Positions 1-36,706 of a DNA stretch of 36,706 nt are shown piece after piece (positions within the stretch are counted from its first letter, which is position 1; every line of letters starts with the position of its first letter). Below the pieces are notes generated by a model. It saw only the letters and a list, made by a program, of their open reading frames with translations. It ran no database searches and was not told the DNA's origin. The translations under genes and the position numbers were made by a program. Source of the stretch: a virus; the IMG/VR virus record IMGVR_UViG_3300026139_000066. One strand, 5' to 3'.

Positions 1-23
1 TCCTGCTGGCCCCAGGCGGGCTC
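1..23. repeat. Terminal 23-nt direct repeat, copy 1 (identical to 36684..36706); circular-contig overlap
   Basis: tcctgctggccccaggcgggctc is found at both extreme ends of the window. A minus-strand ORF reads in frame through the join. Confidence 0.9.
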
Positions 24-9978: not shown

Positions 9979-11025
9979 TTACGCCAGGTAATCCGTCGAC
10001 TGCTTGTTGACGATCTCCACATAAGGGAGTGTCGAGCTCATGCCGGTGGGATTCGCCTGCGCCCGTTCGGCGACAAGCTCGATGCTGTGCTTGATGATCT
10101 TCTCCCGGCTCGGATCGGGGTTCTGGATGATCATTGAGGGGTAAAAGATCGTGATGCTATAGTAGAATCCAGACCCGGCCTCAAGCGGAGACGTCAGTTG
10201 AAGCGCAACCTTCTGCGGAGTCCCCGCAATGTGCGCGGCAAGGTAAGCGGCGTTCACCGCGGCAAAGCGGGGGAAATTCAGCTTCAGCGAGATGTCCGGA
10301 TAATCCGCCGCCGCGGGTAGGACGATTGTGGGTGACCCGGCCACGTACTGGCTGTCGTAGCTCCGGTTGAAGACGGGCTCGATCCCGCTGACGTCCAGCG
10401 GCGTCGTCGTCAGTACGTCCGTAGCAACGTCCCGGCCGTTCATGTAAACTTTGAGTTGGTTGAACGTGACCGGAACATCAAGCGCCGGGGTCAGCGCGGC
10501 CATTTGCACCGTGCCGTTGATGGAACTGTCGTCCTTGCAGTTGTCGCCGCGGCCCTTGGCCTCGTAAGCGATACGGCCATCCTCGACCTTCAGCGCCAGC
10601 CCCAGCGGCATCACCGACGGGGCCTCGTAGATGACGCCCGGGAACTCCGCGGCCAGGGTGTAGAACCCTGACCCGAAATCAGCCCATTTGATTTCGTGTT
10701 TATAAGCGGTGGTCGCCCCCTGCCTTGTCGGCGTTCCGGCCGTCCCAAACAGCAGGGCGAGGTGTCGGCCGATGGCGCCCAGCTCATAGCTGAGATCCCC
10801 TCCGATTGAGATGTCCGGAGGGTTGTAATCCGTCATCACGCCGGCCGGGCGAAACGTCGCTCCCGCGTGATCGCTCGGGGAATATTTCCGGGACGCTTTC
10901 AAGCCGCTGAGTTTTTTGCACAGCAGTTGATCTGAGGCGCCAAGGGCAACCGCCGTGCCCCAGGTCTCGCCCTTTTTCAGCCCTACCTTTTTGTCCAGGA
11001 CGGAAGGCCCTGTCGGTGTAGCCAT
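9979..11025 (-). CDS. Major tail protein
   Basis: 348 aa, directly upstream of the G/GT chaperones. The call is positional plus composition. No sheath gene was recognised, so a siphovirus-like tail is inferred. Confidence 0.7.
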   Translation of the reverse strand: MATPTGPSVLDKKVGLKKGETWGTAVALGASDQLLCKKLSGLKASRKYSPSDHAGATFRPAGVMTDYNPPDISIGGDLSYELGAIGRHLALLFGTAGTPTRQGATTAYKHEIKWADFGSGFYTLAAEFPGVIYEAPSVMPLGLALKVEDGRIAYEAKGRGDNCKDDSSINGTVQMAALTPALDVPVTFNQLKVYMNGRDVATDVLTTTPLDVSGIEPVFNRSYDSQYVAGSPTIVLPAAADYPDISLKLNFPRFAAVNAAYLAAHIAGTPQKVALQLTSPLEAGSGFYYSITIFYPSMIIQNPDPSREKIIKHSIELVAERAQANPTGMSSTLPYVEIVNKQSTDYLA

Positions 11026-19452: not shown

Positions 19453-20172
19453 TCACTTCCCCTGAGTCGCAAGCTGAAAAACGAGTACGGCGGCGATACC
19501 GACGACCGCGCCGGCAACGAATGATTTGGCCTGTCGACCGGTGATGGATCGGGCTAGGTGCGTATAGGCGCGCCGGTCCGCGTCCCATGCGGCTAGCGCT
19601 CGATCCAGAGCTCCCCGCGTGATGGTCAGCCGGGAGCCGATAGCGGCCGTCTCTCGCTCCGCCGCGTCAACAGCGAGCCGGAGATTGGAGGAGACGATCG
19701 TCTCCGCCTGATACCGGGCCTGCCAGGCCTCGGCGGCCAGCAGGTGATTGAGCACCGCTTCGGTCCCGGCGAGGGTGCAGATATAGAGCCCCCCTGCGTT
19801 CGGGACAATCGAGCCCGTCCCGATGCGCTGATTTATTTGACCGGACAGGTCATCGGGCGACAGGGAGGCGGTCAGCGCCTGTAATTGTTTGAGGTCGGAT
19901 TGGATGACGGCGTGTTTTTTCTCAGCGAGAGCGGCGGCTTCGAGCGCCTGTTTTTTTTCAGCTTCGGCGGCCGCTTGCTGTTTTCGGAGAGCGGCCAGCT
20001 CCGCATCTGATCGGACGCGGTAGGACTGATATTCCCGGGTTAGAGCATCGGCGGCGCCGCGCCATTTGAGGGCGGCCCGCCGCTCCGCTTGACCGTAGAG
20101 GATCAACGACGTGATGACGACGGCCAATATGGCGGCCGCGATGATCAGGGCGGATTTGAGTTTGGCGCTCAT
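19453..20172 (-). CDS. Membrane-anchored coiled-coil protein (spanin-like/lysis accessory)
   Basis: ATG at 20172. The 239-aa product has an N-terminal TM (LKSALIIAAAILAVVITSLILYG), a long Ala/Glu/Gln coiled coil and a C-terminal hydrophobic helix. It lies directly downstream of the endolysin. Confidence 0.5.
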   Translation of the reverse strand: MSAKLKSALIIAAAILAVVITSLILYGQAERRAALKWRGAADALTREYQSYRVRSDAELAALRKQQAAAEAEKKQALEAAALAEKKHAVIQSDLKQLQALTASLSPDDLSGQINQRIGTGSIVPNAGGLYICTLAGTEAVLNHLLAAEAWQARYQAETIVSSNLRLAVDAAERETAAIGSRLTITRGALDRALAAWDADRRAYTHLARSITGRQAKSFVAGAVVGIAAVLVFQLATQGK

Positions 20173-20177
20173 GGATC

Positions 20178-20669
20178 TCACCACATCATACCCTCGATAA
20201 ACGCCGCTGTTGGGCGGGGGCGAACGAGATACGCCGTGTCGATGTGGACGAGGTTTTGGCCGGCGGCCAGGTAGGATTTCCATCCGACGCGGAGGAGCGG
20301 CCGGGTGGAGATGATCGTATTTTTGAGGGCGATTAATTCGTCCGGTGATGTGACGGCCAGGTCCAATGCCAGGCCGAAGAGATGGGCGGAGAGCTCTTCC
20401 CCGGCGACGGCGTGGTTTCGATTGACGCAACGGTATCCGGAGTTGATCGGGATGGGGCGGCCCCAGGCCGTACGGATCGCGGAGAACGCCGCAAATAACT
20501 CCCGGTACGGTTCGCCGGGGTGGTCGGGGTCGAGGTCAAACGGGAGCTGATGACAGCAGGGACAGGCGTATTCGGAGGCGAGAATGTAGGGTGCGATAAA
20601 TTGCGGGGAGGCGCCCTTATGCGCAGACGCCCCCCCGCTGGAAGGAGAGAAGAAGGAGGAACCGCTCAC
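20178..20669 (-). CDS. Endolysin, peptidase M15 (D-Ala-D-Ala carboxypeptidase-like) family
   Basis: 163 aa. The motifs ..INSGYRCVNRNHAVAGEELSAHLFGLALD.. and VHID match the zinc-binding H..D..H pattern of M15A/M15_3 lysins. The start is a GTG in the track, so its position is uncertain. Confidence 0.8.
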   Translation of the reverse strand: MSGSSFFSPSSGGASAHKGASPQFIAPYILASEYACPCCHQLPFDLDPDHPGEPYRELFAAFSAIRTAWGRPIPINSGYRCVNRNHAVAGEELSAHLFGLALDLAVTSPDELIALKNTIISTRPLLRVGWKSYLAAGQNLVHIDTAYLVRPRPTAAFIEGMMW

Positions 20670-21452: not shown

Positions 21453-21893
21453 CTATGATTTTTCAGCCGGGGACTCCGGCTGTTCGTGATGGTGGATTTC
21501 GACTTCCACTCGCGGCGTGAGCGAATAACACTTGTCTACACTGAGATATGTTATTTGGGAGTCGTCCCGATAGGCGACTCCGTTTAGGGCGTCTTCGACG
21601 GCCTTGGCAACGTTCGAGGCGTCCGGCCGCGTGACGTGTGGGATGCTCTCGTATCCCTCCTTGCCGTTGCGCAACTTGAGGCGCTTGGGCGGCTGGAAAT
21701 ACGCCTCCACCTCTAGCCAGATCGGCCCGGTCAGCGGAACATGACGCGGGAATTTAGACGTGAAGGCCACGCGGACAAGGTTTTCGAAGCGGGCCGTTTT
21801 CTCGGGTGTGAACGCGTGAGCGCGGCCATGATTGACGACGACGCGGGCGCGGGCCTTTCCGACCGGCTGGCCGGGAACGGTGAAGCGCATCAT
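21453..21893 (-). CDS. rusA: RusA-family Holliday junction resolvase
   Basis: 146 aa. The N-terminus MMRFTVPGQPVGKARARV.. and the segment ..RPDASNVAKAVEDALNGVAYRDDSQI.. are typical RusA motifs. Confidence 0.85.
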   Translation of the reverse strand: MMRFTVPGQPVGKARARVVVNHGRAHAFTPEKTARFENLVRVAFTSKFPRHVPLTGPIWLEVEAYFQPPKRLKLRNGKEGYESIPHVTRPDASNVAKAVEDALNGVAYRDDSQITYLSVDKCYSLTPRVEVEIHHHEQPESPAEKS

Positions 21894-22252
21894 GGCCGGA
21901 CCTCCGCCCGCCGGCCGTCGAACATCTCTAGCTGCACGCCGGGATCGGAGGACAGATGCGGCCAGGTCGTGAGTAGGATTGTGATCCTGGCCTGGACCTT
22001 TTCCGGGGCCATGTGCGGCCGTAGATAATCGCGGTATCTCTGGACCTCCTCGGGCGCCCTGGGAATGAAGATCCCCTCATTGCAAGAGCAGACGGGGAGC
22101 GTGGCATAGATGGCCCTGAGTTTCCGGTCGTCGACATGCATGGCACACCGGCGCTCCAACTTCGCGGCGAGCTCCCTCCGGGGGATGGCGTTTTCCCTCC
22201 CTCGATGACTGGATAGGATCTGCATGATCCGCGCCCGGATCATTTCGTTCAT
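21890..22252 (-). CDS. Hypothetical protein
   Basis: ATG at 22252. The 120-aa product begins MNEMIRARIMQILSSHRGRENAIPRRELAAKLER... There is an ATGA overlap with rusA. The 207 residues upstream in the track ORF overlap the RlpA-like gene in another frame. Confidence 0.5.
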   Translation of the reverse strand: MNEMIRARIMQILSSHRGRENAIPRRELAAKLERRCAMHVDDRKLRAIYATLPVCSCNEGIFIPRAPEEVQRYRDYLRPHMAPEKVQARITILLTTWPHLSSDPGVQLEMFDGRRAEVRP

Positions 22253-22269
22253 GATTTCCCCCTGCCTCC

Positions 22270-22773
22270 TCACATTTCGGGGCCAATGCGGACGGAAGCC
22301 ACTCCCGGCCGGAGGAGTCCGATCTCCCGCGCCGCGGCCGTCGATAGGTCCAGTCCCCGCCCGAGCCGGGGATGCGGTCCCCGGTCCGTGATACGGACGA
22401 TGACCGACCGACCGTTTGCGATGTTCGTCACCCGGATGCGCTTGCCGAACGGGAGCCACGGCGAAGCGGCGGTCATTTCGCGGTCGTCGAAGACGGAGCC
22501 GGAGGCCGTTCTTCGGCCATTGTGTTCGAGCCCATACCAGCTGGCCAGCGTCTCGAACGACGCCCATTCCTCCAGGTAGATGAGCCGATCCGAGAGCGCG
22601 GACATCGCGTCTCGGTTCGCGGCGATCTCCGGCGCGAGCTCCCGCGCCGCCCACGAGCGGCCGTTGTCCACGCCAGTGCTCCACCCCAACGCAAACGCCA
22701 GAGTGGACGCCAGCGCCAGGACCACGGGCCAGAAGATCCATGTCACCGAACGGGGGATGATGATCGTCATCAC
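22270..22773 (-). CDS. Membrane-anchored RlpA-like (double-psi beta-barrel) lytic transglycosylase family protein
   Basis: 167 aa with an N-terminal TM (VTWIFWPVVLALASTLAFALGW). The C-terminus ASWYGLEHNGRRTASGSVFDDREMTAASPWLPFGKRIRVTNIANGRSVIVRITDRGP..LDLSTAAAREIG matches the RlpA DPBB pattern. Confidence 0.8.
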   Translation of the reverse strand: MMTIIIPRSVTWIFWPVVLALASTLAFALGWSTGVDNGRSWAARELAPEIAANRDAMSALSDRLIYLEEWASFETLASWYGLEHNGRRTASGSVFDDREMTAASPWLPFGKRIRVTNIANGRSVIVRITDRGPHPRLGRGLDLSTAAAREIGLLRPGVASVRIGPEM

Positions 22774-23012
22774 GCCCTCCTTGCTTTCGCCGCCCGCCGC
22801 TCCGCCGCCGCGTCCTCAATGCGCTCCTCGCATTCGGTGCAGACCATCTCGCCGTCGATGACATCCAGCTCATCGGCCGTAAACCATCTCAAGCACGCCC
22901 AGCACCGGCGGCAGTTATCCTCCGGCTCCTGGTACCCGTCATCCTCCGGCGTTCCCCGGAGTCGGCCGGACTCGAAAAATGGGCCGATGGATTCTCCCCT
23001 GATTGTTCTCAT
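22770..23012 (-). CDS. Small zinc-ribbon protein
   Basis: 80 aa with CRRCWAC...CTEC. GGAGGAGACA precedes the ATG. Confidence 0.55.
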   Translation of the reverse strand: MRTIRGESIGPFFESGRLRGTPEDDGYQEPEDNCRRCWACLRWFTADELDVIDGEMVCTECEERIEDAAAERRAAKARRA

Positions 23013-27549: not shown

Positions 27550-28593
27550 TCAGCCCTCCATCCCGGCGTAAGCCTTGGCCGTGTGCTTCGCGGCGGACTT
27601 GGCCTTGCCCTTGCGGAGGTGGTCCGCCCAGCGGTTGAGGTAGTCGATCGCGGTCTCGGCCTCGACATTGGACAGATCGCCGGTGTCGGTGATCACCCGG
27701 CCGTGTTTCTTTTCGATCTCACCGCGGATCCCGGTCCAGATCGTCCCTTCCGAAATTCCGAGCGTCTTGAGATCACCCGATTTCGTCTTGATCTTTTCGA
27801 CCTGCTCCGGTCGAGCCGAGACAAGAGTGGGTTCGGGGATTTCGTTTTCGGCGGATTCCTCGAAAGGAATCTGGGGCGGAAGGGATTCGACCGGCTTGGC
27901 GCCGACCAGCCAGGCCATGATCTGCTCGCCCGTCTTTTTCGTCGGCTTGAAGATCTGGCCGTCGAACATCGCGGTCCGGTCTTTGGATGCGACGGCGTTG
28001 TGGTCCATCGCCAAATCGAAAACCGTGGTGAACTCGTACTCCATGCCGTCCCGCTGGATCGGCGCCATGCCGACCTTCTTCGGGGCCGACTTGCCCTTTT
28101 CGTTGATTTCCAGGACGTAATCCTGCTTGGATCTCATGGTGCAAATCAGGATGATATTGGCGTTGAGGATGCGCGCCTTGAATTGCTCGTGCTCTTTTGT
28201 AATACCGGCCCAGTTTGTGTAGGAGTTTCCCCCGCGCTGGTCCAAGGCCTCCTTTTTCGATAGAAGCCCGCCCTCTCCCGCCCAAGCATGAGAGATCGAA
28301 TCGACGACCAGCACGTCATAATTTTCGGCTTGTGCGGCCTCAATCGCCCGGACGTACTTGTCGATGGTGTAGGGCGGATCGAGCTCGAGGACATCGAACG
28401 CGAGTCCTTTCAGCGGCCCCCTGTCCATGTCGGCATAGAGAGACGCGGAGCCGTTCTCGGTATCGATCACGGCGATTTTCTTTCCCATGCCGGAAGCAAG
28501 GAGAAGGGCGGAGAATGTCTTCCCGGAACCGCTCGGGCCTGTCAGGGCAATCTTCGGCTTGTGTTGTTTGCGTTCCGCCTTGACGAATGTCAT
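27550..28593 (-). CDS. Sak4-like RecA-fold ATPase (AAA_24 family) single-strand annealing/recombination protein
   Basis: 347 aa. Walker A is LTGPSGSGKTF and Walker B-like is YDVLVVDSISH. The remaining core (..ICTMRSK..) is typical of the family. Confidence 0.8.
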   Translation of the reverse strand: MTFVKAERKQHKPKIALTGPSGSGKTFSALLLASGMGKKIAVIDTENGSASLYADMDRGPLKGLAFDVLELDPPYTIDKYVRAIEAAQAENYDVLVVDSISHAWAGEGGLLSKKEALDQRGGNSYTNWAGITKEHEQFKARILNANIILICTMRSKQDYVLEINEKGKSAPKKVGMAPIQRDGMEYEFTTVFDLAMDHNAVASKDRTAMFDGQIFKPTKKTGEQIMAWLVGAKPVESLPPQIPFEESAENEIPEPTLVSARPEQVEKIKTKSGDLKTLGISEGTIWTGIRGEIEKKHGRVITDTGDLSNVEAETAIDYLNRWADHLRKGKAKSAAKHTAKAYAGMEG

Positions 28594-29747: not shown

Positions 29748-30269
29748 CTATCTTTTCCACTCGGAAATGATAAAGTCCTTCGGTATTTTATCATACGGAA
29801 TAGGAAGAAATGCGGCGCGGCTAGGGCCAGAAGGCTTGGTCATTAACGCAAGCCTCTCGGTCCCGCATAGCTTGAGCCAGTCAATCATTTTTAGTATGTC
29901 AATGATCTTCCATTCGATGAATTCTACGCCGGACTCATCCGAATATCCGTGTAGGTAAAATTGACTAGCAATCTTGAAGAACTCTCCGCGCTCCTTTGTG
30001 TGTCGGTTTTGCCAAAACTCCATAGTGAAGGTTCGGTACTTGTAGAACGCGAACGATAGCGCCTTTTCCTGGCCGGTCAGTTGCGCTCCGCTTTTTAGGC
30101 GGACCCGCATATCAATGGCAAACTGCTGATCCAGGACGAACAGTTCGGAAGCCCGGCTAAATCGATCTATGCTCTCGGGCGGTACATCGAATACATTACA
30201 AATAACCCGATCGCACGCCGGGCGCATCCGAATCGACTGTTGATATTCAGGGGTATCTTCAAGCGGCAT
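29748..30269 (-). CDS. Hypothetical protein (orphan ORF in a low-GC segment)
   Basis: 173 aa from the ATG at 30269, which overlaps the ParB-MTase stop by 11 nt. No motif recognised. Confidence 0.5.
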   Translation of the reverse strand: MPLEDTPEYQQSIRMRPACDRVICNVFDVPPESIDRFSRASELFVLDQQFAIDMRVRLKSGAQLTGQEKALSFAFYKYRTFTMEFWQNRHTKERGEFFKIASQFYLHGYSDESGVEFIEWKIIDILKMIDWLKLCGTERLALMTKPSGPSRAAFLPIPYDKIPKDFIISEWKR

Positions 30270-31455
30270 TGACGCACCCTCGCTTGAGACAAATATCGAT
30301 GGCCTTGGGGTCAACGTCGCAACCGATCACCCTTCGCCCGAGCTTTGCCGCCGCAAGGATCACGGTCCCACTTCCCGCAAAGGGGTCAAATATAAATTCT
30401 CCGAGCTTCGATGAATTACGGATAAGGCGCTCGATTAAGTCCATCGGCTTCTGCCATTCATGGAATCGGTCACCGATCCGACCGTCCGGAGCGTTGACGT
30501 TCTGGCAGGCGTATTGATGCGTCCCGTCGCTTGGCTTATTGATGGCCGGGGCATCCGGGCCGCGATAGTAAAGGATGATCTGATAATTCGACGTGTATCT
30601 TTTATTCGGTTGACGCTGGCCTGTGTTGTTATAGTTCCAAATCAAAACCTGTTCCAATTTTAGGCCGTGAGAATCCATGCGGAGATAGGCCGCGATTTCG
30701 GCCGGGTCCGCGCTGGCAAAGATATACGCCTGTCCGGTTGGCTTTACGCGGGAGAGGCAAGCGGATACGTGTCCCGTAAAGTCTCCCTCCGTAAAATAGG
30801 GCGGGTCAGTCAAGAGTAGGTCGATCGGAGGTGTTGTCTTTAATACATCCAGGCAATCTCCCTTGATGATGACGGGGCGCTCTGACAGCGCGGCCTTCGT
30901 CTCGGCTATATGGCGTTCGCGGCGAACCTCGATGTTCTTTTCTGCCTTGGCCTTCGATACGGGCTTATGTTCGAGGATCGCCTTTTGTAATTCCGGGCTT
31001 CGCTCCACTTCCTCGGCAAATTTCGCGTCCCGCTTGATCGTCGCGGGGGAGACGCCGTGTTCTTTGGCAAGGCGGGCGGCCGTCGAAGCTGGTTCATTTT
31101 GATCCAGCTTTTTAGGCCCCCGTTCTCCGTCTGCTTTTTTAAGCCGGTTATACCGCCGCCCCCTTAGCAGGCTCATTTGATCCGGCGTGAGGTTGCGTCG
31201 TCCGAGTTGGTTCCTGTCGATCCAGTCGGCCGCCGCCGCCCGGTTCGGCAATTCAATCGCCGTTGTTTTATACGGAAGTTGGAGCCGCTCGCAAATCTCG
31301 AAGCGGTTATGCCCGTCCAAAATAATCCCGTCCCAAATGACAAGCGCATCCCGGCAACCTTCGGCCCGGATATTCGCTTCCAGTTGGATTCGCTCATCCT
31401 CTGACAGCGGCGGGATCAGCGCGTGAAACTCCGGGTCAATAATTGGCTTGGTCAT
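30259..31455 (-). CDS. ParB-like nuclease domain fused to a beta-class N6-adenine/N4-cytosine DNA methyltransferase
   Basis: 398 aa. The N-terminus carries ..VIWDGIILDGHNRFEIC.. (ParB/Srx-like DGHxR). The methyltransferase motif IV LLLTDPPYF comes before motif I FDPFAGSGT, which is the beta-class order. Confidence 0.85.
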   Translation of the reverse strand: MTKPIIDPEFHALIPPLSEDERIQLEANIRAEGCRDALVIWDGIILDGHNRFEICERLQLPYKTTAIELPNRAAAADWIDRNQLGRRNLTPDQMSLLRGRRYNRLKKADGERGPKKLDQNEPASTAARLAKEHGVSPATIKRDAKFAEEVERSPELQKAILEHKPVSKAKAEKNIEVRRERHIAETKAALSERPVIIKGDCLDVLKTTPPIDLLLTDPPYFTEGDFTGHVSACLSRVKPTGQAYIFASADPAEIAAYLRMDSHGLKLEQVLIWNYNNTGQRQPNKRYTSNYQIILYYRGPDAPAINKPSDGTHQYACQNVNAPDGRIGDRFHEWQKPMDLIERLIRNSSKLGEFIFDPFAGSGTVILAAAKLGRRVIGCDVDPKAIDICLKRGCVNAA

Positions 31456-31467
31456 CGTGCCTCCATA

Positions 31468-31475
31468 AAATAAAA
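31468..31475. repeat. 8-bp target-site duplication AAATAAAA (left copy)
   Basis: Directly abuts the left IR and is identical to 34480..34487. Confidence 0.8.
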
Positions 31476-31498
31476 GGTAATGTTCACTTTTAGGGCTT
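31476..31498. repeat. Transposon terminal inverted repeat (left): GGTAATGTTCACTTTTAGGGCTT
   Basis: 23/23 match to the reverse complement of 34457..34479. It overlaps the last codons and the stop of vsr. Confidence 0.9.
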
Positions 31499-31894
31499 TA
31501 AATTATCTTTGATCCACTTGCTTAAAACGTTTTCCTTCTCCGTTTGGCATTCCCATACGACTAAAACCTTCCAGCCCAAACCGATAAGCTTTGATTTGGA
31601 TTCGCTAAAAGAGTTTACGTTGCGTTCAAACTTCTTTTTCCAGTACTCCTCGTTGCTTTTGGGCGTTGTAGCCTTTTTGCAGTCGTGCCTATGCCAAAAG
31701 CATCCGTGAACGAATATAACCGTTCCATGCTTGGGAAGAACTATGTCTGGCTTTCCAGGAAGGTCTTTTCTGTGAAGCCTGAAGCGGTATCCCGCTTTGT
31801 GGAGAGCCGACCTCACCATCATTTCCGGCTTGGTATTCTTGCTCCTGACGCGAGACATTATCTCGCTTCTCTTGTCTTTGCTGACTTTGTCCAT
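31490..31894 (-). CDS. vsr: Very short patch repair (Vsr) endonuclease
   Basis: 134 aa. ..RSEIMSRVRSKNTKPEMMVRSALHKAGYRFRLHRKDLPGKPDIVLPKHGTVIFVHGCFWHRH.. is the canonical Vsr motif set. Confidence 0.9.
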   Translation of the reverse strand: MDKVSKDKRSEIMSRVRSKNTKPEMMVRSALHKAGYRFRLHRKDLPGKPDIVLPKHGTVIFVHGCFWHRHDCKKATTPKSNEEYWKKKFERNVNSFSESKSKLIGLGWKVLVVWECQTEKENVLSKWIKDNLKP

Positions 31895-32610
31895 TACACG
31901 CCGTAGCTCGAAAGCATGTAGGGTTTCATGCCGTCAACAAAGTCATGAACCTTCAGCTTTAGCTGAACGTTATTGCCAGGATGCCTTATGTCGTCCTTTC
32001 TCATATGGCAGTAGCTTGCTCCGTTTCCGCCCTTTCTCTGAAAAACGATATAGTCGCCTATGGTCAGGTTTCCTCTTGCCGTGAATCCTATGTCGTATCC
32101 CACGTGCCTCAAAACGTCGTCCATCTTGTATATTCTGAACAAGCTCTCAGGGCTGGCAAAAAGCACAAGAATCTCTCTGCTTGTTTTTGCGGCCAAAGAC
32201 CATTTGACCATTCTTCTGGCTATCGGAGAGAATATGCCTAGAGCCTTCGGTTGCTCGCTTTCTGAAAACAGCTTTTGCGATACATTTCTTGCTTTCGAGA
32301 GAAAAAGCTCCTCTAGCCAATCTTGGCACGAAAGCCCAAACTCTCCGCAAAAATGCTCTATTGAAGTTCTGGTCATCTGGTTATAGGCCATCTCCCCGTA
32401 CGATTTTATGTTGGCGTCTATATTCCGTCCGCACGTGAACTCCAGAGTCACGTCTCTTTTTTCTGCGTGTATTCCAGAGCTGATTCCTGTTCTGAAATTG
32501 CCCGTTATGGAGTACGCGCTTTTTATTGCATTTATTACTGAAGGATGATCGCTGACACTATTTCTAAACAAAATTTCTACGTTTCTTCCCCTGTACGCGT
32601 TTCTGTTCAT
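31894..32610 (-). CDS. Type II restriction endonuclease candidate (MspI/HinP1I-like)
   Basis: 238 aa, lying between the C5 MTase and vsr with 1-nt TAATG overlaps on both sides. From memory, the C-terminal ..VFQRKGGNG..NNVQLKLK.. resembles the HinP1I/MspI family. No search was run. Confidence 0.6.
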   Translation of the reverse strand: MNRNAYRGRNVEILFRNSVSDHPSVINAIKSAYSITGNFRTGISSGIHAEKRDVTLEFTCGRNIDANIKSYGEMAYNQMTRTSIEHFCGEFGLSCQDWLEELFLSKARNVSQKLFSESEQPKALGIFSPIARRMVKWSLAAKTSREILVLFASPESLFRIYKMDDVLRHVGYDIGFTARGNLTIGDYIVFQRKGGNGASYCHMRKDDIRHPGNNVQLKLKVHDFVDGMKPYMLSSYGV

Positions 32611-33533
32611 TAGGCCGCCTTTATCGATTCGTAAACGTGACTTATCATTTGCGGAATTACCGCATTTCCAAGCTGCTGGTATCCCTGAATCCCATCGGAC
32701 ACGAAATGGCTTTTAGAAAAGCCCATTAGCGTCTTGCACTCGTCTATCGAGAGCTTTCTTATGCCGTTAGGCGTAAGATACAGTCCGGTTCTGGCCCCGA
32801 CTCCGCCCCCATAGGCCGACAGGGTTATCGCGTGACCCTTGGGACTGTAAATCCTCTCTCCCTGGCCTCCCTTGTTAACGATTCCAATTCTAAGGGGCTT
32901 TAGGGCCTGCTTGACGTCCGACTTTTCGATCCTTATGTCGTCCCTGTTTATGAACAGGGACTTTTCCGCACTTGTATCCATAACGTTTTCGAGATACACT
33001 TTTCTAAAGGATTCTTTAGGGGGCTTGTACTTAAGCTTGCCGTCCCTTCTAAGACAGACGAAATAAACCCTTGACCTGCTTTGCGGTATCCCGAAATGCG
33101 AGGCGTTCAATATATGCTTGTGAACGTCGTAGCCGATTTCTCCGAGCTTAAATTCTATGGTTTTCATTACGTTTCCGCTGTCTATCGTCAGAATGTTCTT
33201 TACGTTTTCAAGCAGCAGAACGTAAGGCTGATGGTATTGGGCTATTCTGACTATCTCGTAAAAGAGTCTGCCCCTTTCGTCCTTTATGCCGCCATGATTT
33301 CCGGATATGCTGAACGACTGGCACGGAAAGCCCGCACAAAGAATGTCGTGCTTGGGAATCTTTCTTTCGTGAATTTCGGTAATGTCTCCATGGGGCTTTT
33401 CTCCGAAATTTCTGCGATACGCGTCCTGAACCTTCAAATCGTTGTCCGAAGAAAAAACGCATTCCATGCCCTGCTTTTCCAAAGCGACCCTAAAACCTCC
33501 TATTCCACAAAACAAATCTATAAACTTATACAT
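32610..33533 (-). CDS. DNA (cytosine-5) methyltransferase, M.HhaI-like
   Basis: 307 aa. Motif I is DLFCGIGGF, motif IV GFPCQSFS, motif VI LLENVKN, motif VIII QSRSRVYF and motif X QLGNAV. The TRD segment RIGIVNKGGQGERIYSPKGHAITLSAYGGG closely parallels M.HhaI (RLGIVGKGGQGERIYSTRGIAITLSAYGGG, recalled from memory). Confidence 0.95.
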   Translation of the reverse strand: MYKFIDLFCGIGGFRVALEKQGMECVFSSDNDLKVQDAYRRNFGEKPHGDITEIHERKIPKHDILCAGFPCQSFSISGNHGGIKDERGRLFYEIVRIAQYHQPYVLLLENVKNILTIDSGNVMKTIEFKLGEIGYDVHKHILNASHFGIPQSRSRVYFVCLRRDGKLKYKPPKESFRKVYLENVMDTSAEKSLFINRDDIRIEKSDVKQALKPLRIGIVNKGGQGERIYSPKGHAITLSAYGGGVGARTGLYLTPNGIRKLSIDECKTLMGFSKSHFVSDGIQGYQQLGNAVIPQMISHVYESIKAA

Positions 33534-34398
33534 AGAGCATCCCCCTCATTATGTTTGTAAAAACTTCGTTCGTATGATTTGTCCTGTTGTTGTACTTGAA
33601 TGCCGCCTCTGCAACGTACAGAGGCATATATTTCTTGGTATAGTGGTGATGCTGTCCAAGCCAAGCCCTTTTCAGGAGAGACCAAAACCCCTCTATTGTA
33701 TTGGTGTGAACGTTTCCGTTAACGTATTCCTTTTTGCCGTGGTTTACGACTCGATGAGAAAGCATTTTACCCACGTTGGAGTAAATCCTGTACTCATCCG
33801 TGTGTATCTCCGACTTGTCGATGTTCACGTTGTTCAGAATGAAATCTCTTATGTCGCCTTGATTCGCCTTTTGAACCGGCATAGCTACAACGGAACCCTT
33901 CCTTTGGACTATTCCTATAACCTGCTGCTTCTTGGTTCCCCTTCCTCTTTTGTTGTTGGGCTTGTTATAGCGAGGCTTGCCTCCGATATAGGTTTCGTCT
34001 ATTTCGATAATTCCGTCGAGTATGGGGGACTTCGATCCAAGCATGGCCTTTCTGAGCCTCTGGCTCACAGAATACGCCGTTTTTACCGGAATATCAAGGT
34101 GTCTGGCAAGCTGTCGGCTGGAGATGGATTTTTTCGCGTCGGATATGATCGAAATCGCTATGAACCATTTAACAAGGGGAAGTCTTGTCCCGTGGAAAAT
34201 AGTGTTTACAGTGGGGGAAAACGACTTTCTACATCCCGAACACTGCCATCTGGATCGCCTGTTTTTTTCAGTGTGACGGCTTACGTTTTTGGACTTGCAA
34301 TAGGGACAGTATTTCATTTTCGCCCATCTCAAGTTGGATATGTATTCCAAACAGTCTTCGTCCGACCTGAATCTTTCTATAACGCTTATTAGCCTCAT
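33526..34398 (-). CDS. IS1595-family (ISXO2-like) DDE transposase with an N-terminal zinc ribbon
   Basis: ATG at 34398 gives a 290-aa product. It contains ..CPYCKSKNVSRH...WQCSGCRKSFS.. followed by ..IEIDETYIGGK.. and ..IHTDEYRIY...HTNTIEGFWSLLKR.., which are typical of the family. Confidence 0.9.
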   Translation of the reverse strand: MRLISVIERFRSDEDCLEYISNLRWAKMKYCPYCKSKNVSRHTEKNRRSRWQCSGCRKSFSPTVNTIFHGTRLPLVKWFIAISIISDAKKSISSRQLARHLDIPVKTAYSVSQRLRKAMLGSKSPILDGIIEIDETYIGGKPRYNKPNNKRGRGTKKQQVIGIVQRKGSVVAMPVQKANQGDIRDFILNNVNIDKSEIHTDEYRIYSNVGKMLSHRVVNHGKKEYVNGNVHTNTIEGFWSLLKRAWLGQHHHYTKKYMPLYVAEAAFKYNNRTNHTNEVFTNIMRGMLYV

Positions 34399-34456
34399 TG
34401 TCCATTCCTCTTTGTTTTTTTGTGAGACCATAATAGCGCACGCACAAAGACGTGTC

Positions 34457-34479
34457 AAGCCCTAAAAGTGAACATTACC
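34457..34479. repeat. Transposon terminal inverted repeat (right): AAGCCCTAAAAGTGAACATTACC
   Basis: Reverse complement of 31476..31498. Confidence 0.9.
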
Positions 34480-34487
34480 AAATAAAA
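34480..34487. repeat. 8-bp target-site duplication AAATAAAA (right copy)
   Basis: Directly abuts the right IR and is identical to 31468..31475. Confidence 0.8.
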
Positions 34488-34854
34488 AGCCCGGCTCGCT
34501 CCTGCTGTGATCCCCGCCGCGCGATATGCGCTTTGAGACAGAATACGAACCGGGCGTTATTTGTTTTGTTCATTGGCGAAGATCACAAAAACAACCTACG
34601 CTTTTTTGCGTAGAATGTCAAGGGGGAATTTGCCCCGGCCTTTTGGTTCGTAGCCCTCCCCGCGTCCCAGAACGTCCCCCATTTTCGACGACCAGAAAAC
34701 AAAGATTTTTGAAGATTTTTTACCCGTTTATTATCAATAACTTACGGGGCATATTTAAGCGGATTGTATTATCGATCAGCGCTCGATCGCCGCTATGATC
34801 CGCATCGCCGTCCAGAAACATTTGGACGGTTTGGACGCGGCCGCGCAAGCCCCG

Positions 34855-35175
34855 CTAAAGCTCCACCGGCGGGAGGGAGCGGCGGGCCTTGGAGTCGTGC
34901 CAGCGCAAAAACAGCAGGCAGCAAACGGCGTGATCCAGGTGGCCCTCGCCCGTCTCCGGGTCCCGCTCCTCTCCGGCCTGCCAGGCCGCCAGGTGTCTCA
35001 TCATGGCCGCGTAATAGCGGCGGACACCTTCGGGGACGTGCTGCCAGTTATCGGGAGCGTATTTGGTCGCGCCGAACGTGAGCACCCGGACCGCGCCCGC
35101 GAGCGTGTCGAGCGGCAAGAGATCCCAGCGGGCCTTCTCATCGTCCCGCTTTTCTCCGACGTAGGCGACGGTCAT
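34855..35175 (-). CDS. dATP/dGTP diphosphohydrolase N-terminal-domain protein (MazG-associated family)
   Basis: ATG at 35175 overlaps the upstream stop (ATGA). The 106-aa product contains ..KARWDLLPLDTLAGAVRVLTFGATKYAPDNW.., which matches the family signature as I remember it. Confidence 0.6.
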   Translation of the reverse strand: MTVAYVGEKRDDEKARWDLLPLDTLAGAVRVLTFGATKYAPDNWQHVPEGVRRYYAAMMRHLAAWQAGEERDPETGEGHLDHAVCCLLFLRWHDSKARRSLPPVEL

Positions 35176-36173
35176 CGTTTGAACCTGTCCACCATCGCAC
35201 CGGCCAGGCTCTCGCCTTTCCAGATCGGGACGTGTACCCGCTGGAAGTTCCCGCTCTTGGCGATGAAGTCGATCGCGTAGCCTTGGCTCCAGGACGTCGG
35301 ATCGCTGTGCTTCCAAATGGGCTGCATCTGGGACAGGCAGCCGGGATTGAACGCCTTACAGATACCGATACCGGGGTAGACGATCGTCGCCGTGTCTTCC
35401 CGATGAGTGCAGAAGAACGTCACGTTCCCAGCAGTCTTCTGGACGGCATCCCGGGCGGCGTTTTTCGAATAGGCCAGGGAATGCGTGAAGAACATCTTCC
35501 CGAGCTGGAGCCAGCCGCGGGGCAAGCCGGCGCCGTAAATCTCCGTCCGCCGGTAGTAGGGAATCCCGCGCTCCTCGAGCCGGAGAAGGGCATAGGGAGA
35601 AAACGCGGCCCGGAGAAATTCCGCGTCCCGGCCGTGGGCCATCGTGGTATCAACACACCAGCGCTCTACCCGGTCCTCGTGATTGCCCTCGAGGTAGTGG
35701 ATTTCGGCATCCGGGGCTGCCTTCTGGAGCTCATCCAGGAACCACGCCGCGGCCAGGACATCCTCCTGGTAGGAATAATCGCAGGTGGCCACGAACCCGA
35801 TCGGCTGATGCTTGGCAAGCCAACCGCCGCATTCGATCAGATCTCCGCCTATCACCAGGACGTCGGGCTTGAAAATGCGGACATCCCGGAGCATGGCCTC
35901 GACGGCCGGCCGGTCCATCATCATTCCGTGAACGTCGCCGAAGGACATCCTGATCTGATCTGCCTTGCATCGCTTGGGGTCATGCGGCCGACACTTCGGG
36001 ACGGGGCGGGCGTTCCGCATGTCGTTGTACTCATCGAGGAGCTGCGCCCGGTCCGCCATGAGCGCCTTGATGGTCCGCTGGAAGTCGGCGATCTTGGACT
36101 GGGCATCGATGACCTTTTCCATCGCCGGGTCTGACGTGATGTGCTTTCCCTTGAGGTCGATTTTTGCGGTCAC
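35172..36173 (-). CDS. Calcineurin-like metallophosphoesterase
   Basis: 333 aa with motifs GDVHG, GGDLIE and LEGNHED in the canonical order. Confidence 0.8.
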   Translation of the reverse strand: MTAKIDLKGKHITSDPAMEKVIDAQSKIADFQRTIKALMADRAQLLDEYNDMRNARPVPKCRPHDPKRCKADQIRMSFGDVHGMMMDRPAVEAMLRDVRIFKPDVLVIGGDLIECGGWLAKHQPIGFVATCDYSYQEDVLAAAWFLDELQKAAPDAEIHYLEGNHEDRVERWCVDTTMAHGRDAEFLRAAFSPYALLRLEERGIPYYRRTEIYGAGLPRGWLQLGKMFFTHSLAYSKNAARDAVQKTAGNVTFFCTHREDTATIVYPGIGICKAFNPGCLSQMQPIWKHSDPTSWSQGYAIDFIAKSGNFQRVHVPIWKGESLAGAMVDRFKR

Positions 36174-36637: not shown

Positions 36638-36706
36638 TCAACCGGCCAGCGCCCGCTGTTCGGCCCAATCGGCCAGCCGGATGTCCTGCTGGCCCCAGGC
36701 GGGCTC
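36638..36706 (-). CDS. 3' end of the boundary-crossing 454-aa glycoside-hydrolase-like ORF
   Basis: The same frame continues ...EPAWGQQDIRLADWAEQRALAG then TGA (tca 36638..36640). Total is 1319+46 unique nt = 1365 nt = 455 codons. The next gene's GGAGG RBS follows. Confidence 0.7.
   Translation of the reverse strand, partial: EPAWGQQDIRLADWAEQRALAG
36684..36706. repeat. Terminal 23-nt direct repeat, copy 2 (identical to 1..23)
   Basis: Exact match to positions 1..23. Confidence 0.9.

What the first reader, a model, noticed from the sequence alone, without database searches (positions are those of the whole stretch)
31468..34487. Unit transposon (IS1595-type) whose cargo is a whole R-M-Vsr cassette, freshly inserted in a phage genome
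Four minus-strand genes are bracketed by transposon ends. They are an IS1595/ISXO2-like transposase (33526..34398), a C5 methyltransferase (32610..33533), a restriction endonuclease candidate (31894..32610) and Vsr (31490..31894). A perfect 23-bp inverted repeat, GGTAATGTTCACTTTTAGGGCTT, sits at 31476..31498, with its reverse complement at 34457..34479. The IRs are directly flanked by identical 8-bp direct repeats AAATAAAA (31468..31475 and 34480..34487). Eight bp is the duplication size reported for the IS1595 family. Sample lines inside the block count about 37-45% GC, against about 57-65% in the flanking phage genes. The 3,004-bp block therefore behaves as one transposable unit, not a composite of two IS copies, and it carries a complete restriction, modification and mismatch-repair package on a virion-packaged genome. 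R-M systems have been argued to be mobile selfish elements. I cannot place this architecture (single IS1595 transposase plus R-M-Vsr cargo inside one IR pair, riding a phage) in a described family.
Basis: partly seen in the sequence, partly recalled or inferred. Interest (0 to 1): 0.85.

Follow-up and report, generated by a model that had tools for sequence, protein, structure and literature searches.

The report
Self-transposing restriction-modification cassette in a phage
A 3-kb jumping gene of the IS1595 family carries a complete restriction, methylation and repair package as built-in cargo; it has hopped, intact, into a phage genome and into at least four other DNA sites, showing how a DNA-cutting defence system can move as its own transposon.

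Summary
Perfect 23-bp inverted repeats (31476-31498, 34457-34479) and an 8-bp duplication AAATAAAA bracket a 3,004-bp block. The block holds four overlapping minus-strand genes: IS1595 transposase, C5 methyltransferase, nuclease and Vsr. Transposition is shown, not just inferred. Two independent contigs of the same phage lack the block and keep one copy of the 8-mer. The same element (99.5-100% identical) sits at four or more other sites; two of them show matching AT-rich 8-bp duplications on both sides, a third on separate contigs. The methyltransferase is a full-length M.HhaI relative with conserved recognition loops. The nuclease has a predicted HinP1I fold and the MspI/HinP1I catalytic D…NxK. 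The cargo is therefore probably a GCGC system. Relatives with 51-77% transposase identity keep the same gene order, and the cargo genes diverge in step under purifying selection, so this is an old lineage. The architecture does have a described class: transporter IS (tIS) of the IS1595 family, such as tISCpe8 and MTnSag1. Furuta et al. (2010) reported IR-flanked R-M units with 8-bp duplications. I found no description of a complete R-M-Vsr operon as IS1595 cargo, nor of one in a phage. Virion packaging, enzyme activity and specificity are untested.

The parts
31468..31475 (.). Target-site duplication, copy 1 (AAATAAAA)
   Evidence: A single copy is present in the empty-site contigs L018 and L019, where the two BLAST pieces overlap by exactly these 8 bp.
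31476..31498 (+). Terminal inverted repeat at the vsr end (GGTAATGTTCACTTTTAGGGCTT); the vsr stop codon lies inside it
   Evidence: The same end abuts different flanking DNA in L006-L008, L010-L013 and L016.
31490..31894 (-). vsr, very-short-patch T:G mismatch endonuclease (134 aa)
   Evidence: PF03852 4e-32 and TIGR00632 148 bits against a cut-off of 98. E. coli Vsr structure 1cw0 matches at 6.7e-26, with the PGxPD and HGCFWH motifs aligned.
31894..32610 (-). Type II restriction endonuclease candidate, HinP1I/MspI-like (238 aa)
   Evidence: Nothing reaches a curated cut-off in Pfam or NCBIfam. MspI matches at 0.015, with D53/N67/K69 aligned to MspI residues that count, in the printed alignment, to D99/N117/K119; that these are MspI's catalytic residues is from memory. 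These three residues are invariant in 60 homologues. The AF2 model has pLDDT 93.7. The top Foldseek hits are HinP1I 2fkc (E 1.3e-10, TM 0.69), 1ynm and then MspI.
32610..33533 (-). C5 cytosine DNA methyltransferase, M.HhaI-like (307 aa), predicted GCGC
   Evidence: PF00145 4e-77. M.HhaI matches at 9e-89 over residues 3-302 against 13-316, including the stretches GKGGQGERIYS and AITLSAYGGG.
33526..34398 (-). IS1595-family DDE transposase (290 aa) with N-terminal zinc ribbon; its stop overlaps the M start by 8 nt
   Evidence: PF12762 7e-38, PF12760 8e-09 and NF033547 2e-53. D134, D201, N233, K243, E264 and four Cys are invariant in 35 homologues.
33605..33625 (.). Hairpin inside the 3' end of tnp; its loop is the junction point of the transposase-deleted derivatives
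   Evidence: dG -15.3 for the 40-nt segment 33596-33635 that contains it. The junctions map to 33614 (L006, L010) and 33617 (L007, L015).
34430..34458 (-). Promoter-like site TTGACA-17-TATTAT (11/12 matches); the -35 straddles the inner edge of the inverted repeat and lies upstream of tnp
   Evidence: TTGACA, TTGTCA or TTGACT occupies the same position in relatives L020, L023 and L024. Function is inferred.
34457..34479 (-). Terminal inverted repeat at the transposase end
   Evidence: The same end abuts different DNA in L003-L005, L007, L011, L013 and L015.
34480..34487 (.). Target-site duplication, copy 2 (AAATAAAA)
34489..34556 (-). Phage-borne long hairpin followed by the U-run that served as the insertion target (terminator-like)
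   Evidence: dG -41 kcal/mol, z -5.4, 0 of 200 shuffles as stable. There is no Rfam match.
30259..31455 (-). Phage N6/N4 DNA methyltransferase gene directly downstream; its RBS begins 4 nt after the duplicated 8-mer, and it is co-oriented with the element
   Evidence: PF01555 3e-26 and phrog_67; sequence.

Best explanation
The block 31476-34479 is an autonomous transporter insertion sequence (tIS) of the IS1595 family. A single DDE transposase gene is followed, with overlapping stop and start codons, by three passenger genes:
- an M.HhaI-like C5 methyltransferase;
- a HinP1I/MspI-fold restriction endonuclease;
- Vsr.

All four genes lie inside one pair of 23-bp terminal inverted repeats.

Shown here:
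- The unit moves as a whole and makes 8-bp duplications of very AT-rich targets.
- It entered this phage in the T-run behind a terminator-like hairpin, 4 nt upstream of the RBS of a phage methyltransferase gene (12 nt upstream of its start codon). It lies in the same orientation as the phage genes.
- The duplication restores both the U-tract and the RBS context, so no phage gene is broken.

Inferred:
- Transcription starts at a near-consensus promoter whose -35 overlaps the inner edge of the transposase-proximal repeat.
- The four genes are translated as one coupled operon in the order tnp, M, R, vsr.
- The R-M pair recognises GCGC. M protects the carrier replicon, including the phage's 244 GCGC sites. 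R cuts unmodified DNA and penalises loss of the element.
- Vsr repairs the T:G mismatches produced by deamination of the 5-methylcytosines that M creates.
- For the phage, the likely pay-off is self-methylation against GCGC-type host restriction and a nuclease usable against unmodified competitors or host DNA.
For: Structure:
- IR 23/23 and TSD 8/8.
- The transposase passes the curated thresholds of Pfam and NCBIfam for IS1595, and the catalytic candidates are invariant.

Transposition:
- Empty sites in L018 and L019 are 100% identical to both flanks and hold one copy of the 8-mer.
- The same insertion is seen in independent assemblies L001, L002 and L009.
- Element copies that are 99.5-100% identical lie at other sites:
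  - between acyl-CoA dehydrogenase and enoyl-CoA hydratase genes, TSD TTAAATTT, with the two ends on separate contigs;
  - a site with TSD AAACTTTA, again with the two ends on separate contigs;
  - a site with TSD TTATTTTA, both ends on one contig;
  - a site with AAACATTA on the left, where the contig is cut after 'AAA' on the right.

Cargo identity:
- M.HhaI matches at 9e-89, with the stretches GKGGQGERIYS and AITLSAYGGG conserved.
- R has a HinP1I fold (E 1.3e-10, TM 0.69) with D53/N67/K69 invariant.
- Vsr.

Old, selected unit:
- Relatives with transposase identity of 77, 75, 68, 60, 56 and 51% keep tnp-M-R, with or without vsr.
- In the five relatives inspected for ends (77, 75, 68, 60 and 56%) the unit lies inside its own IRs with 8-bp AT-rich duplications.
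- pN is 0.15-0.25 against pS of 0.70-0.91 for all four genes.
- 26 R-family clusters share their exact longest-contig length with a transposase-homologue cluster.

Promoter.
Phage context: terminase, portal, protease, major head, tape measure and tail genes, plus a 23-bp terminal overlap.
Against: - No activity data exist for any of the four proteins.
- R fails the Pfam R-HinP1I cut-off (16.9 against 25 bits) and is only 15-17% identical to HinP1I and MspI.
- GCGC specificity is inferred from M alone.
- GCGC is not avoided in the phage (244 sites, observed/expected 0.97), so there is no sequence footprint of long co-existence.
- Packaging of the enlarged genome into virions is not shown, and no close cultured relative of the phage exists (portal 31-41% identity).
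- The element (45% GC) and the phage (59% GC) differ strongly in composition, so the cell in which the jump occurred is unknown.
- M-R pairs of the same family also occur without any transposase or IRs, in Borreliella lp28-5, Rickettsia tillamookensis and one IMG/VR contig. The R-M module is therefore not obligatorily transposon-borne.
- Several metagenome contigs through the repeat are probably chimeric (L007 joins the left flank of one site to the right flank of another).
Confidence: 0.88

Rival explanations
1. The junctions are assembly chimeras: a bacterial IS/R-M region was wrongly stitched into a phage contig.
For: - Metagenome assemblers do mis-join at repeats.
- L007 appears to join the left flank of one site to the right flank of another.
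- L002 breaks exactly at the IR.
Against: - The same two junctions occur in four independently assembled contigs from different samples: the window, L001, L009 and L002 (one junction).
- The junctions carry a perfect 8-bp duplication.
- The empty-site contigs hold exactly one copy of that 8-mer. Chimeric joins do not create target duplications.
Confidence: 0.01
2. The element is a real insertion, but the cargo is not a working R-M system. The 238-aa protein could be a different kind of nuclease or inactive, with M acting as an orphan methyltransferase and Vsr as its partner.
For: - R has no hit that reaches a curated cut-off in Pfam or NCBIfam.
- All database homologues are labelled hypothetical.
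- Decayed copies exist: L025 has a fused or truncated M, and L056 a split M.
Against: - R is conserved in the canonical position between M and vsr, with overlapping stop and start codons.
- It has a confident HinP1I-like predicted fold and the invariant D…NxK triad that aligns to MspI residues D99/N117/K119 (their catalytic role is from memory).
- It is under purifying selection (pN 0.19-0.23 against pS 0.82-0.91).
- HinP1I cuts GCGC, the site methylated by M.HhaI (established knowledge).
Confidence: 0.08
3. The carrier is not an infectious phage but a defective prophage or phage-like plasmid. On that reading the element is not being shuttled in virions.
For: - Packaging was not tested.
- The window is not in IMG/VR.
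- No integrase or lysis genes were identified among the ORFs scanned.
- Only distant cultured relatives exist.
Against: - A full set of head, packaging, tail and replication genes is present on one strand.
- The contig has a 23-bp terminal overlap, as expected for a circularly assembling complete genome of 36.7 kb.
- The same genome, with and without the element, recurs in several samples.
Confidence: 0.15
4. The block is moved in trans or by another mechanism, such as a composite transposon, homologous recombination or R-M-driven insertion, and not by its own transposase.
For: - Transposase-deleted copies that keep both IRs exist at a site with an 8-bp duplication (L015, L016). Trans-mobilisation is therefore plausible for derivatives.
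Against: - There is only one transposase gene and only two IR copies in the window, so no second IS is present.
- An 8-bp duplication is the one the literature reports for IS1595-family elements (PMC5704250).
- The IRs, the promoter position and the transposase co-diverge with the cargo in relatives.
- There is no flank homology between sites.
Confidence: 0.04

Closest known systems
Transporter IS (tIS) of the IS1595 family, e.g. tISCpe8 (lnuP, Clostridium perfringens) and MTnSag1 (lnuC, Streptococcus agalactiae)
   Same: - A single IS1595-family DDE transposase plus passenger gene(s) sits inside one pair of roughly 25-bp terminal inverted repeats.
- 8-bp target duplications are made (PMC5704250).
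- The class is defined in 10.1101/2021.05.26.445724.
   Different: - The described examples carry a lincosamide resistance gene and mobilisation functions.
- Here the cargo is a three-gene R-M-Vsr operon coupled to the transposase gene.
- That operon is conserved across a deep clade (transposase identity down to about 51%).
- One copy lies in a phage genome.
Transposon-like R-M units of Furuta, Abe and Kobayashi 2010 (PMC2853133): the X. oryzae PstI-type system with 65-bp IRs, and the N. gonorrhoeae unit with 26-bp IRs
   Same: - R-M genes are flanked by terminal inverted repeats and 8-bp direct repeats, with an empty site in a related genome.
- The Neisseria unit also contains a COG3677 transposase-like gene.
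   Different: - In those cases the transposase was absent or judged a likely inactivated derivative.
- The Neisseria R-M gene was truncated, only one insertion each was seen, and the authors left the mobilising activity open.
- Here the transposase is intact.
- At least five insertion sites of one near-identical element are seen, and the association is conserved in a clade.
HinP1I / HhaI (GCGC) Type II R-M systems
   Same: - M aligns full-length with M.HhaI, including the stretches GKGGQGERIYS and AITLSAYGGG.
- The predicted structure of R is closest to HinP1I and then MspI, with the same D…(N/Q)xK active site.
   Different: - R is only about 15% identical to HinP1I and fails the Pfam family cut-off.
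- It belongs to a small unannotated family: 140 clusters among 5.8 billion proteins, all labelled 'hypothetical'.
- Specificity is untested.
Dcm-Vsr and EcoRII-type C5-methyltransferase/Vsr pairings
   Same: A Vsr mismatch endonuclease is encoded next to a C5 methyltransferase, presumably to correct 5mC deamination (established knowledge; E. coli Vsr homology).
   Different: - The expected mismatch context is GCGC-derived, not CCWGG.
- vsr is the last gene of a transposon-borne operon, and its stop codon lies inside the terminal repeat.

Membership tests
IS1595 family (insertion sequences) | Transposase with the DDE_Tnp_IS1595 (ISXO2-like) catalytic domain | tested here: met
   PF12762 130.4 bits (cut-off 27), covering the full profile 2-153; NF033547 181.4 bits (cut-off 75).
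IS1595 family (insertion sequences) | N-terminal zinc-ribbon DNA-binding domain | tested here: met
   PF12760 35.7 bits (cut-off 25.4). C31, C34, C53 and C56 are invariant.
IS1595 family (insertion sequences) | Intact catalytic acidic/polar residues (DD[N/E/H]K-type motif) | tested here: met
   D134, D201, N233, E236, K243 and E264 are invariant in 35 homologues. Assigning which residues are catalytic is by analogy, not by structure.
IS1595 family (insertion sequences) | Terminal inverted repeats and 8-bp target-site duplication | tested here: met
   23-bp perfect IRs. 8-bp duplications occur at the phage site, at three other sites of this element where both flanks are seen, and at five sites of relatives.
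IS1595 family (insertion sequences) | Assignment to an ISfinder subgroup (ISPna2, IS1016, ISNwi1 and so on) and an ISfinder name | not testable with these tools
   ISfinder is not available here. The end sequence GGTAATG resembles the GGnnnTG-type ends I recall for one subgroup, but this was not checked.
Transporter IS (tIS) | Passenger genes located inside the IS ends and moving with them | tested here: met
   The full 3,004-bp unit is seen with different flanks in the window and L013, and in L011 with its right flank cut after 3 nt. Empty sites are in L018 and L019.
Composite (compound) transposon | Two IS copies flanking the cargo | tested here: not met
   There is one transposase gene and only two IR matches in the window.
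Tn3-family unit transposon | Tn3-type transposase with resolvase, ~38-bp IRs and 5-bp duplication | tested here: not met
   The transposase is of IS1595 type, there is no resolvase, the IRs are 23 bp and the TSD is 8 bp.
Type II R-M system, HhaI/HinP1I (GCGC) type | C5 methyltransferase with an M.HhaI-like target-recognition domain | tested here: met
   9.2e-89, residues 3-302 against 13-316 of M.HhaI. The stretches GKGGQGERIYS and AITLSAYGGG are nearly identical.
Type II R-M system, HhaI/HinP1I (GCGC) type | Sequence membership of the endonuclease in Pfam R-HINP1I | tested here: not met
   16.9 bits against a cut-off of 25, over a 40-residue stretch only. There is no NCBIfam hit.
Type II R-M system, HhaI/HinP1I (GCGC) type | HinP1I/MspI fold with a D…(N/Q)xK active site | tested here: met
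   AF2 pLDDT 93.7. Foldseek gives 2fkc at E 1.3e-10 with TM 0.69/0.67. D53, N67 and K69 are invariant and align to MspI residues D99/N117/K119 (catalytic role from memory). The structure is predicted, not solved.
Type II R-M system, HhaI/HinP1I (GCGC) type | Methylation-sensitive cleavage at GCGC | not testable with these tools
   This needs enzymology or methylome data.
Vsr endonuclease | Vsr domain above curated thresholds | tested here: met
   PF03852 110 bits (cut-off 27), TIGR00632 148 bits (cut-off 98), and 1cw0 at 6.7e-26.
Tailed phage genome (carrier) | Terminase, portal, protease, major head, tape measure and tail genes on one replicon | tested here: met
   PHROG hits; 23-bp terminal overlap.
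Tailed phage genome (carrier) | Packaged into virions with the insertion | not testable with these tools
   No read or virome data are available.

The most novel reading that the evidence does not exclude
A whole clade of IS1595 transposases (about 50-100% identical to this one, dozens of protein clusters in metagenomes) may have lived for a long time in obligate partnership with a HinP1I-like GCGC R-M system, usually with Vsr. In this reading the four genes form one coupled operon, making a 'self-transposing restriction-modification element'. The transposase supplies mobility and the R-M supplies post-segregational stabilisation. The element crosses between bacterial chromosomes of different GC content and phage genomes, and it spawns transposase-less derivatives that keep both IRs. 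This would be the cleanest natural case so far of an R-M system behaving as an autonomous DNA transposon, and a route by which phages acquire R-M and self-methylation.
Probability: 0.5. Interest if true: 0.72.

Novelty: new variant of a known kind. Interest (0 to 1): 0.6.

Why it matters
The idea that restriction-modification systems are selfish mobile elements rests mostly on indirect signs such as odd GC content, linkage to mobility genes and single insertion events. This element supplies direct signs:
- It has intact ends, an intact transposase and intact R, M and Vsr genes.
- Occupied and empty alleles of one site are both seen.
- Near-identical copies occur at several sites.
- Transposase-deleted derivatives exist.
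- A deep family of relatives keeps the same layout.

The hypothesis becomes directly testable with one 3-kb clone, through transposition, addiction and protection assays.

Phages are reported to tolerate IS poorly (PMC3429520). This phage nevertheless gained a three-gene defence and anti-defence package in a single step, through an AT-rich intergenic target that leaves phage genes intact.

The endonuclease also belongs to a small, unannotated HinP1I-like family that annotation pipelines currently call 'hypothetical'.

Tried and rejected
- Megablast of the element against the GenBank phage and PLSDB plasmid collections gave no match.
- An exact IR scan of IMG/VR found nothing. The scan of GTDB representative genomes also found nothing.
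- The IR scan of JGI metagenome contigs returned only 4 loci, two of them new (L015, L016).
- A transposase search in GTDB genomes found only relatives of 47% identity or less. None had M, R or Vsr within 5 kb, so the host was not identified that way.
- The IMG/VR transposase search found one distant relative without cargo.
- An exact-protein look-up of R found nothing on record, although the gene is present in many loci.
- A tblastn of R against phages gave no match.
- PHROG scans of the small ORFs flanking sites 3 and 'X' (L007, L010) gave no hits, so those contexts stay unclassified.
- An Rfam scan of the region gave no match.
- Siguier et al. 2009 (PubMed id 19286454) and the tISCpe8 paper (PMC2753038) are not held. 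I therefore could not check whether R-M passengers were already listed for IS1595.
- Literature searches for R-M as tIS or IS passenger genes gave no direct precedent beyond PMC2853133.
- I considered and rejected a composite transposon, a Tn3-type unit transposon and an assembly chimera (see the rival explanations and the membership test).
- I considered whether the neighbouring dATP/dGTP diphosphohydrolase gene marks a Z-genome phage. Two of the three ORFs of PurZ-like size gave no Pfam hit; the third (9979-11025) was scanned against PHROGs only. This was not pursued.

Full report
**1. Observation**

The sequence shows GGTAATGTTCACTTTTAGGGCTT at 31476-31498 and its exact reverse complement at 34457-34479. 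AAATAAAA lies immediately outside each arm, at 31468-31475 and 34480-34487. With up to three mismatches allowed, the 23-mer has only these two matches in the window, and none in 100 shuffles.

Four minus-strand ORFs fill the interval:
- 33526-34398, 290 aa
- 32610-33533, 307 aa
- 31894-32610, 238 aa
- 31490-31894, 134 aa

Their ends overlap. The stop of the first gene overlaps the next start by 8 nt, and the next two junctions are both TAATG. The element is 45.4% GC and the rest of the window is 59.1%.

**2. Gene identities**

*Transposase.* It matches DDE_Tnp_IS1595 (130 bits, cut-off 27), Zn_ribbon_IS1595, and the NCBIfam IS1595 model (181 bits, cut-off 75). In an alignment of 35 homologues, D134, D201, N233, E236, K243, E264 and the four zinc-ribbon cysteines are invariant.

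*Methyltransferase.* The 307-aa protein matches PF00145 (4e-77). It aligns with M.HhaI over nearly its full length (9e-89). The alignment includes the stretches GKGGQGERIYS and AITLSAYGGG, which I recall as the M.HhaI recognition loops. I therefore predict GCGC specificity.

*Nuclease.* The 238-aa protein has no hit that reaches a curated cut-off in Pfam or NCBIfam.
- It aligns weakly with MspI, such that D53, N67 and K69 fall on MspI D99, N117 and K119 by residue count in the alignment; I recall these as its catalytic residues.
- These three residues are invariant in 60 homologues.
- An AlphaFold2 model built with that alignment is confident (pLDDT 93.7, pTM 0.88).
- Its best PDB matches are HinP1I (2fkc, E 1.3e-10, TM 0.69/0.67; 1ynm) and then MspI.
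- HinP1I cuts GCGC (established knowledge), which fits the methyltransferase.

*Vsr.* The 134-aa protein is Vsr (PF03852, TIGR00632; E. coli Vsr 1cw0 at 6.7e-26).

**3. Proof of transposition as one unit**

A look-up of the downstream phage methyltransferase protein returned two contigs from other samples, L018 and L019. They match both flanks at 100% identity but lack the block. Their two BLAST pieces overlap by exactly the 8 bp TTTTATTT.

The occupied site recurs in independent assemblies L001, L002 and L009.

Look-ups of the transposase and Vsr proteins, plus an IR scan, found the same element at 99.5-100% identity in other contexts:
- **Site 2** lies between an acyl-CoA dehydrogenase gene (L003-L005) and enoyl-CoA hydratase/thiolase genes (L006-L008, L012). 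TTAAATTT is present on both sides.
- **Site 3** has AAACTTTA on both sides (L007 and L015 on the left, L010 and L016 on the right).
- **Site 4** (L011) has AAACATTA on the left; the contig ends after 'AAA' on the right.
- **Site 5** (L013) has TTATTTTA on both sides.

Of the 80 positions in the five target octamers of this element and five of its relatives, 75 are A or T. Only 85 of 33,694 positions in the phage start an all-A/T octamer.

**4. Context in the phage**

The window encodes terminase, portal, head protease, major head protein, tape measure and tail fibre proteins. It also encodes a replication organiser, an AAA_24 ATPase and an N6/N4 methyltransferase. All are on the minus strand. 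Its ends share a 23-bp direct repeat, as expected of a circularly assembling complete genome. The nearest cultured phages have portal proteins only 31-41% identical.

The element sits in the U-run that follows a long, unusually stable hairpin at 34489-34556 (dG -41 kcal/mol, z -5.4). It lies 4 nt upstream of the RBS of the phage methyltransferase gene, which is 12 nt upstream of its start codon, and is co-oriented with the phage genes. The 8-bp duplication leaves a U-tract after the hairpin and the original spacing before the RBS, so no phage gene is interrupted.

**5. Expression (inferred)**

A TTGACA-17-TATTAT site (11 of 12 matches) lies at 34458-34430 on the minus strand. Its -35 straddles the inner edge of the IR. 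Relatives keep TTGACA-like hexamers at the same place. The overlapping stops and starts argue for a coupled operon in the order tnp, M, R, vsr.

**6. An old lineage, not a one-off capture**

| Locus | Transposase identity | Layout | 8-bp duplication | Other cargo identities |
|---|---|---|---|---|
| L020-L022 | 77% | tnp-M-R-vsr, 3,010 bp | AAAAATAA | M 76%, R 70%, Vsr 66% |
| L023 | 75% | tnp-M-R-vsr | ATGATTTT | M 73%, R 66%, Vsr 69% |
| L024 | 68% | tnp-M-R | AAACATTT | M 69%, R 57% |
| L054 | 60% | tnp-M-R-vsr | AAAGATAA | M 72%, R 46%, Vsr 60% |
| L025 | 56% | decayed | TAAATTTT | M 54%, R 48% |
| L056 | 51% | tnp-M-R, vsr upstream and divergent | not determined | M 64-67% (gene split), R 47%, Vsr 43% |

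Apart from M in L054, the cargo diverges in step with the transposase. Nonsynonymous differences (0.15-0.25) are far below synonymous ones (0.70-0.91, saturated) in all four genes.

Transposase relatives of 47% identity or less in GTDB genomes and one IMG/VR contig have no such cargo within 5 kb.

The R family is small: 140 clusters among 5.8 billion proteins, all labelled 'hypothetical'. Of the R clusters listed, 26 share their exact longest-contig length with a transposase-homologue cluster. This is an indirect lower bound on co-occurrence.

The M-R pair also exists without transposase or IRs in three places:
- Borreliella burgdorferi N40 lp28-5;
- Rickettsia tillamookensis, between ftsH and a gene whose product carries ferredoxin-type iron-sulfur domains (sdhB-like, my reading);
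- one IMG/VR contig.

**7. Comparison with what is known**

The TnCentral paper defines a transporter IS (tIS) as IS-like but carrying passenger genes, and as restricted to the IS1595 and IS66 families (10.1101/2021.05.26.445724). MTnSag1 and tISCpe8 are IS1595-family examples with 25-bp IRs and 8-bp repeats (PMC5704250).

Furuta et al. 2010 (PMC2853133) described R-M units flanked by IRs with 8-bp duplications. One, in Neisseria gonorrhoeae, has a COG3677 transposase-like gene. That gene was judged a likely inactivated derivative and the R-M gene was truncated, and the authors left the mobilising activity open. They also cite Siguier et al. 2009 for R-M or M genes associated with IS. I could not read that paper.

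I found no description of any of the following:
- a complete Type II R-M plus Vsr operon as IS1595 cargo;
- a conserved clade of such elements;
- a copy in a phage genome.

Phages are reported to tolerate IS poorly (PMC3429520).

**8. Open points**

- No activity, specificity, methylation or packaging data exist.
- GCGC is not under-represented in the phage (244 sites, observed/expected 0.97). It is low in the element, but only 2 sites are involved.
- The element's GC content (45%) matches the Syntrophomonadaceae-like chromosome of site 2 (about 47%; named relatives of its acyl-CoA dehydrogenase are 63-72% identical, mostly Syntrophomonadaceae and including two Methylocystaceae-labelled MAGs). 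It does not match the phage (59%). The cell in which the jump happened is unknown.
- Some metagenome contigs that run through the repeat are evidently mixed. L007 joins the left flank of site 3 to the right flank of site 2.

**9. Verdict**

This is an active, or very recently active, IS1595-family tIS whose passengers are a probable GCGC R-M system plus Vsr. It is caught polymorphic in a phage population and present at several other loci. I rate it a new variant of a known kind, with an interest score of 0.6.

Noticed in passing
window 33605-33625; L007 1139-1175, L015 100-140, L006 358-453, L010 1533-1560: Transposase-deleted derivatives of the element exist. L007 and L015 keep the transposase-end IR plus 8 nt and then join window position 33617. 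L006 and L010 carry unrelated upstream DNA joined at 33614, which creates a 31-aa ORF (MNIAEAAFKYNNR…) with its own RBS that overlaps the M start. Both junctions fall in the loop of a perfect hairpin in the 3' end of tnp. The hairpin is not conserved in relatives.
   Followed up: partly
L003 3838-3965: In one chromosomal copy the M gene is followed by a TnpB (IS200/IS605 OrfB)-like fragment, …[35 protein letters not shown], instead of R. It diverges at window position 32606. L012 from the same sample has the normal M-R-vsr end, so this is either a rearranged variant or a chimeric contig end.
   Followed up: no
window 34489-34556 (minus strand): A long, very stable hairpin (dG -41 kcal/mol, z -5.4) is followed by a U-run in the AT-richer intergenic region of the phage. 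It is terminator-like but much longer than usual and has no Rfam match. Its U-run is the transposon target.
   Followed up: partly
window 34855-36173: Just upstream of the insertion site the phage encodes a dATP/dGTP diphosphohydrolase N-terminal domain protein (PF18909, MazZ-like) and a calcineurin-like phosphoesterase. Two of the three ORFs of PurZ-like size (19453-20430, 21890-22873) gave no Pfam hit. The third (9979-11025) was scanned against PHROGs only and gave none.
   Followed up: partly
L002 3299-3302 against window 31069-31180: A variant of the element-bearing phage has a 112-bp deletion inside the N6/N4 methyltransferase gene directly downstream of the insertion (product called as 326 aa instead of 398). 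It also has a substituted segment near window 27971-28112.
   Followed up: no
window 1-23 and 36684-36706: A 23-bp terminal direct repeat of the contig suggests a circular assembly, that is, a complete genome of about 36.7 kb.
   Followed up: partly
L058 3049-4720 (B. burgdorferi N40 lp28-5), L059 4066-5723 (Rickettsia tillamookensis), L057 5059-6720 (IMG/VR contig): M-R pairs of the same family (R 43-54% identical) occur without any IS1595 transposase or recognisable IRs. The R gene is annotated 'hypothetical protein' in RefSeq and GenBank. In Rickettsia the pair sits 25 nt after ftsH.
   Followed up: partly
L056 4522-7551: In a relative with 51% transposase identity, vsr lies upstream of and divergent from tnp instead of at the end of the operon, and the M gene is split into two ORFs.
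   Followed up: no
window 30259-31455: The phage's own N6/N4 DNA methyltransferase carries an N-terminal extension of about 200 aa with no Pfam domain (phrog_21315, unknown function). The phage therefore already encoded an orphan methyltransferase before gaining the C5 system.
   Followed up: no
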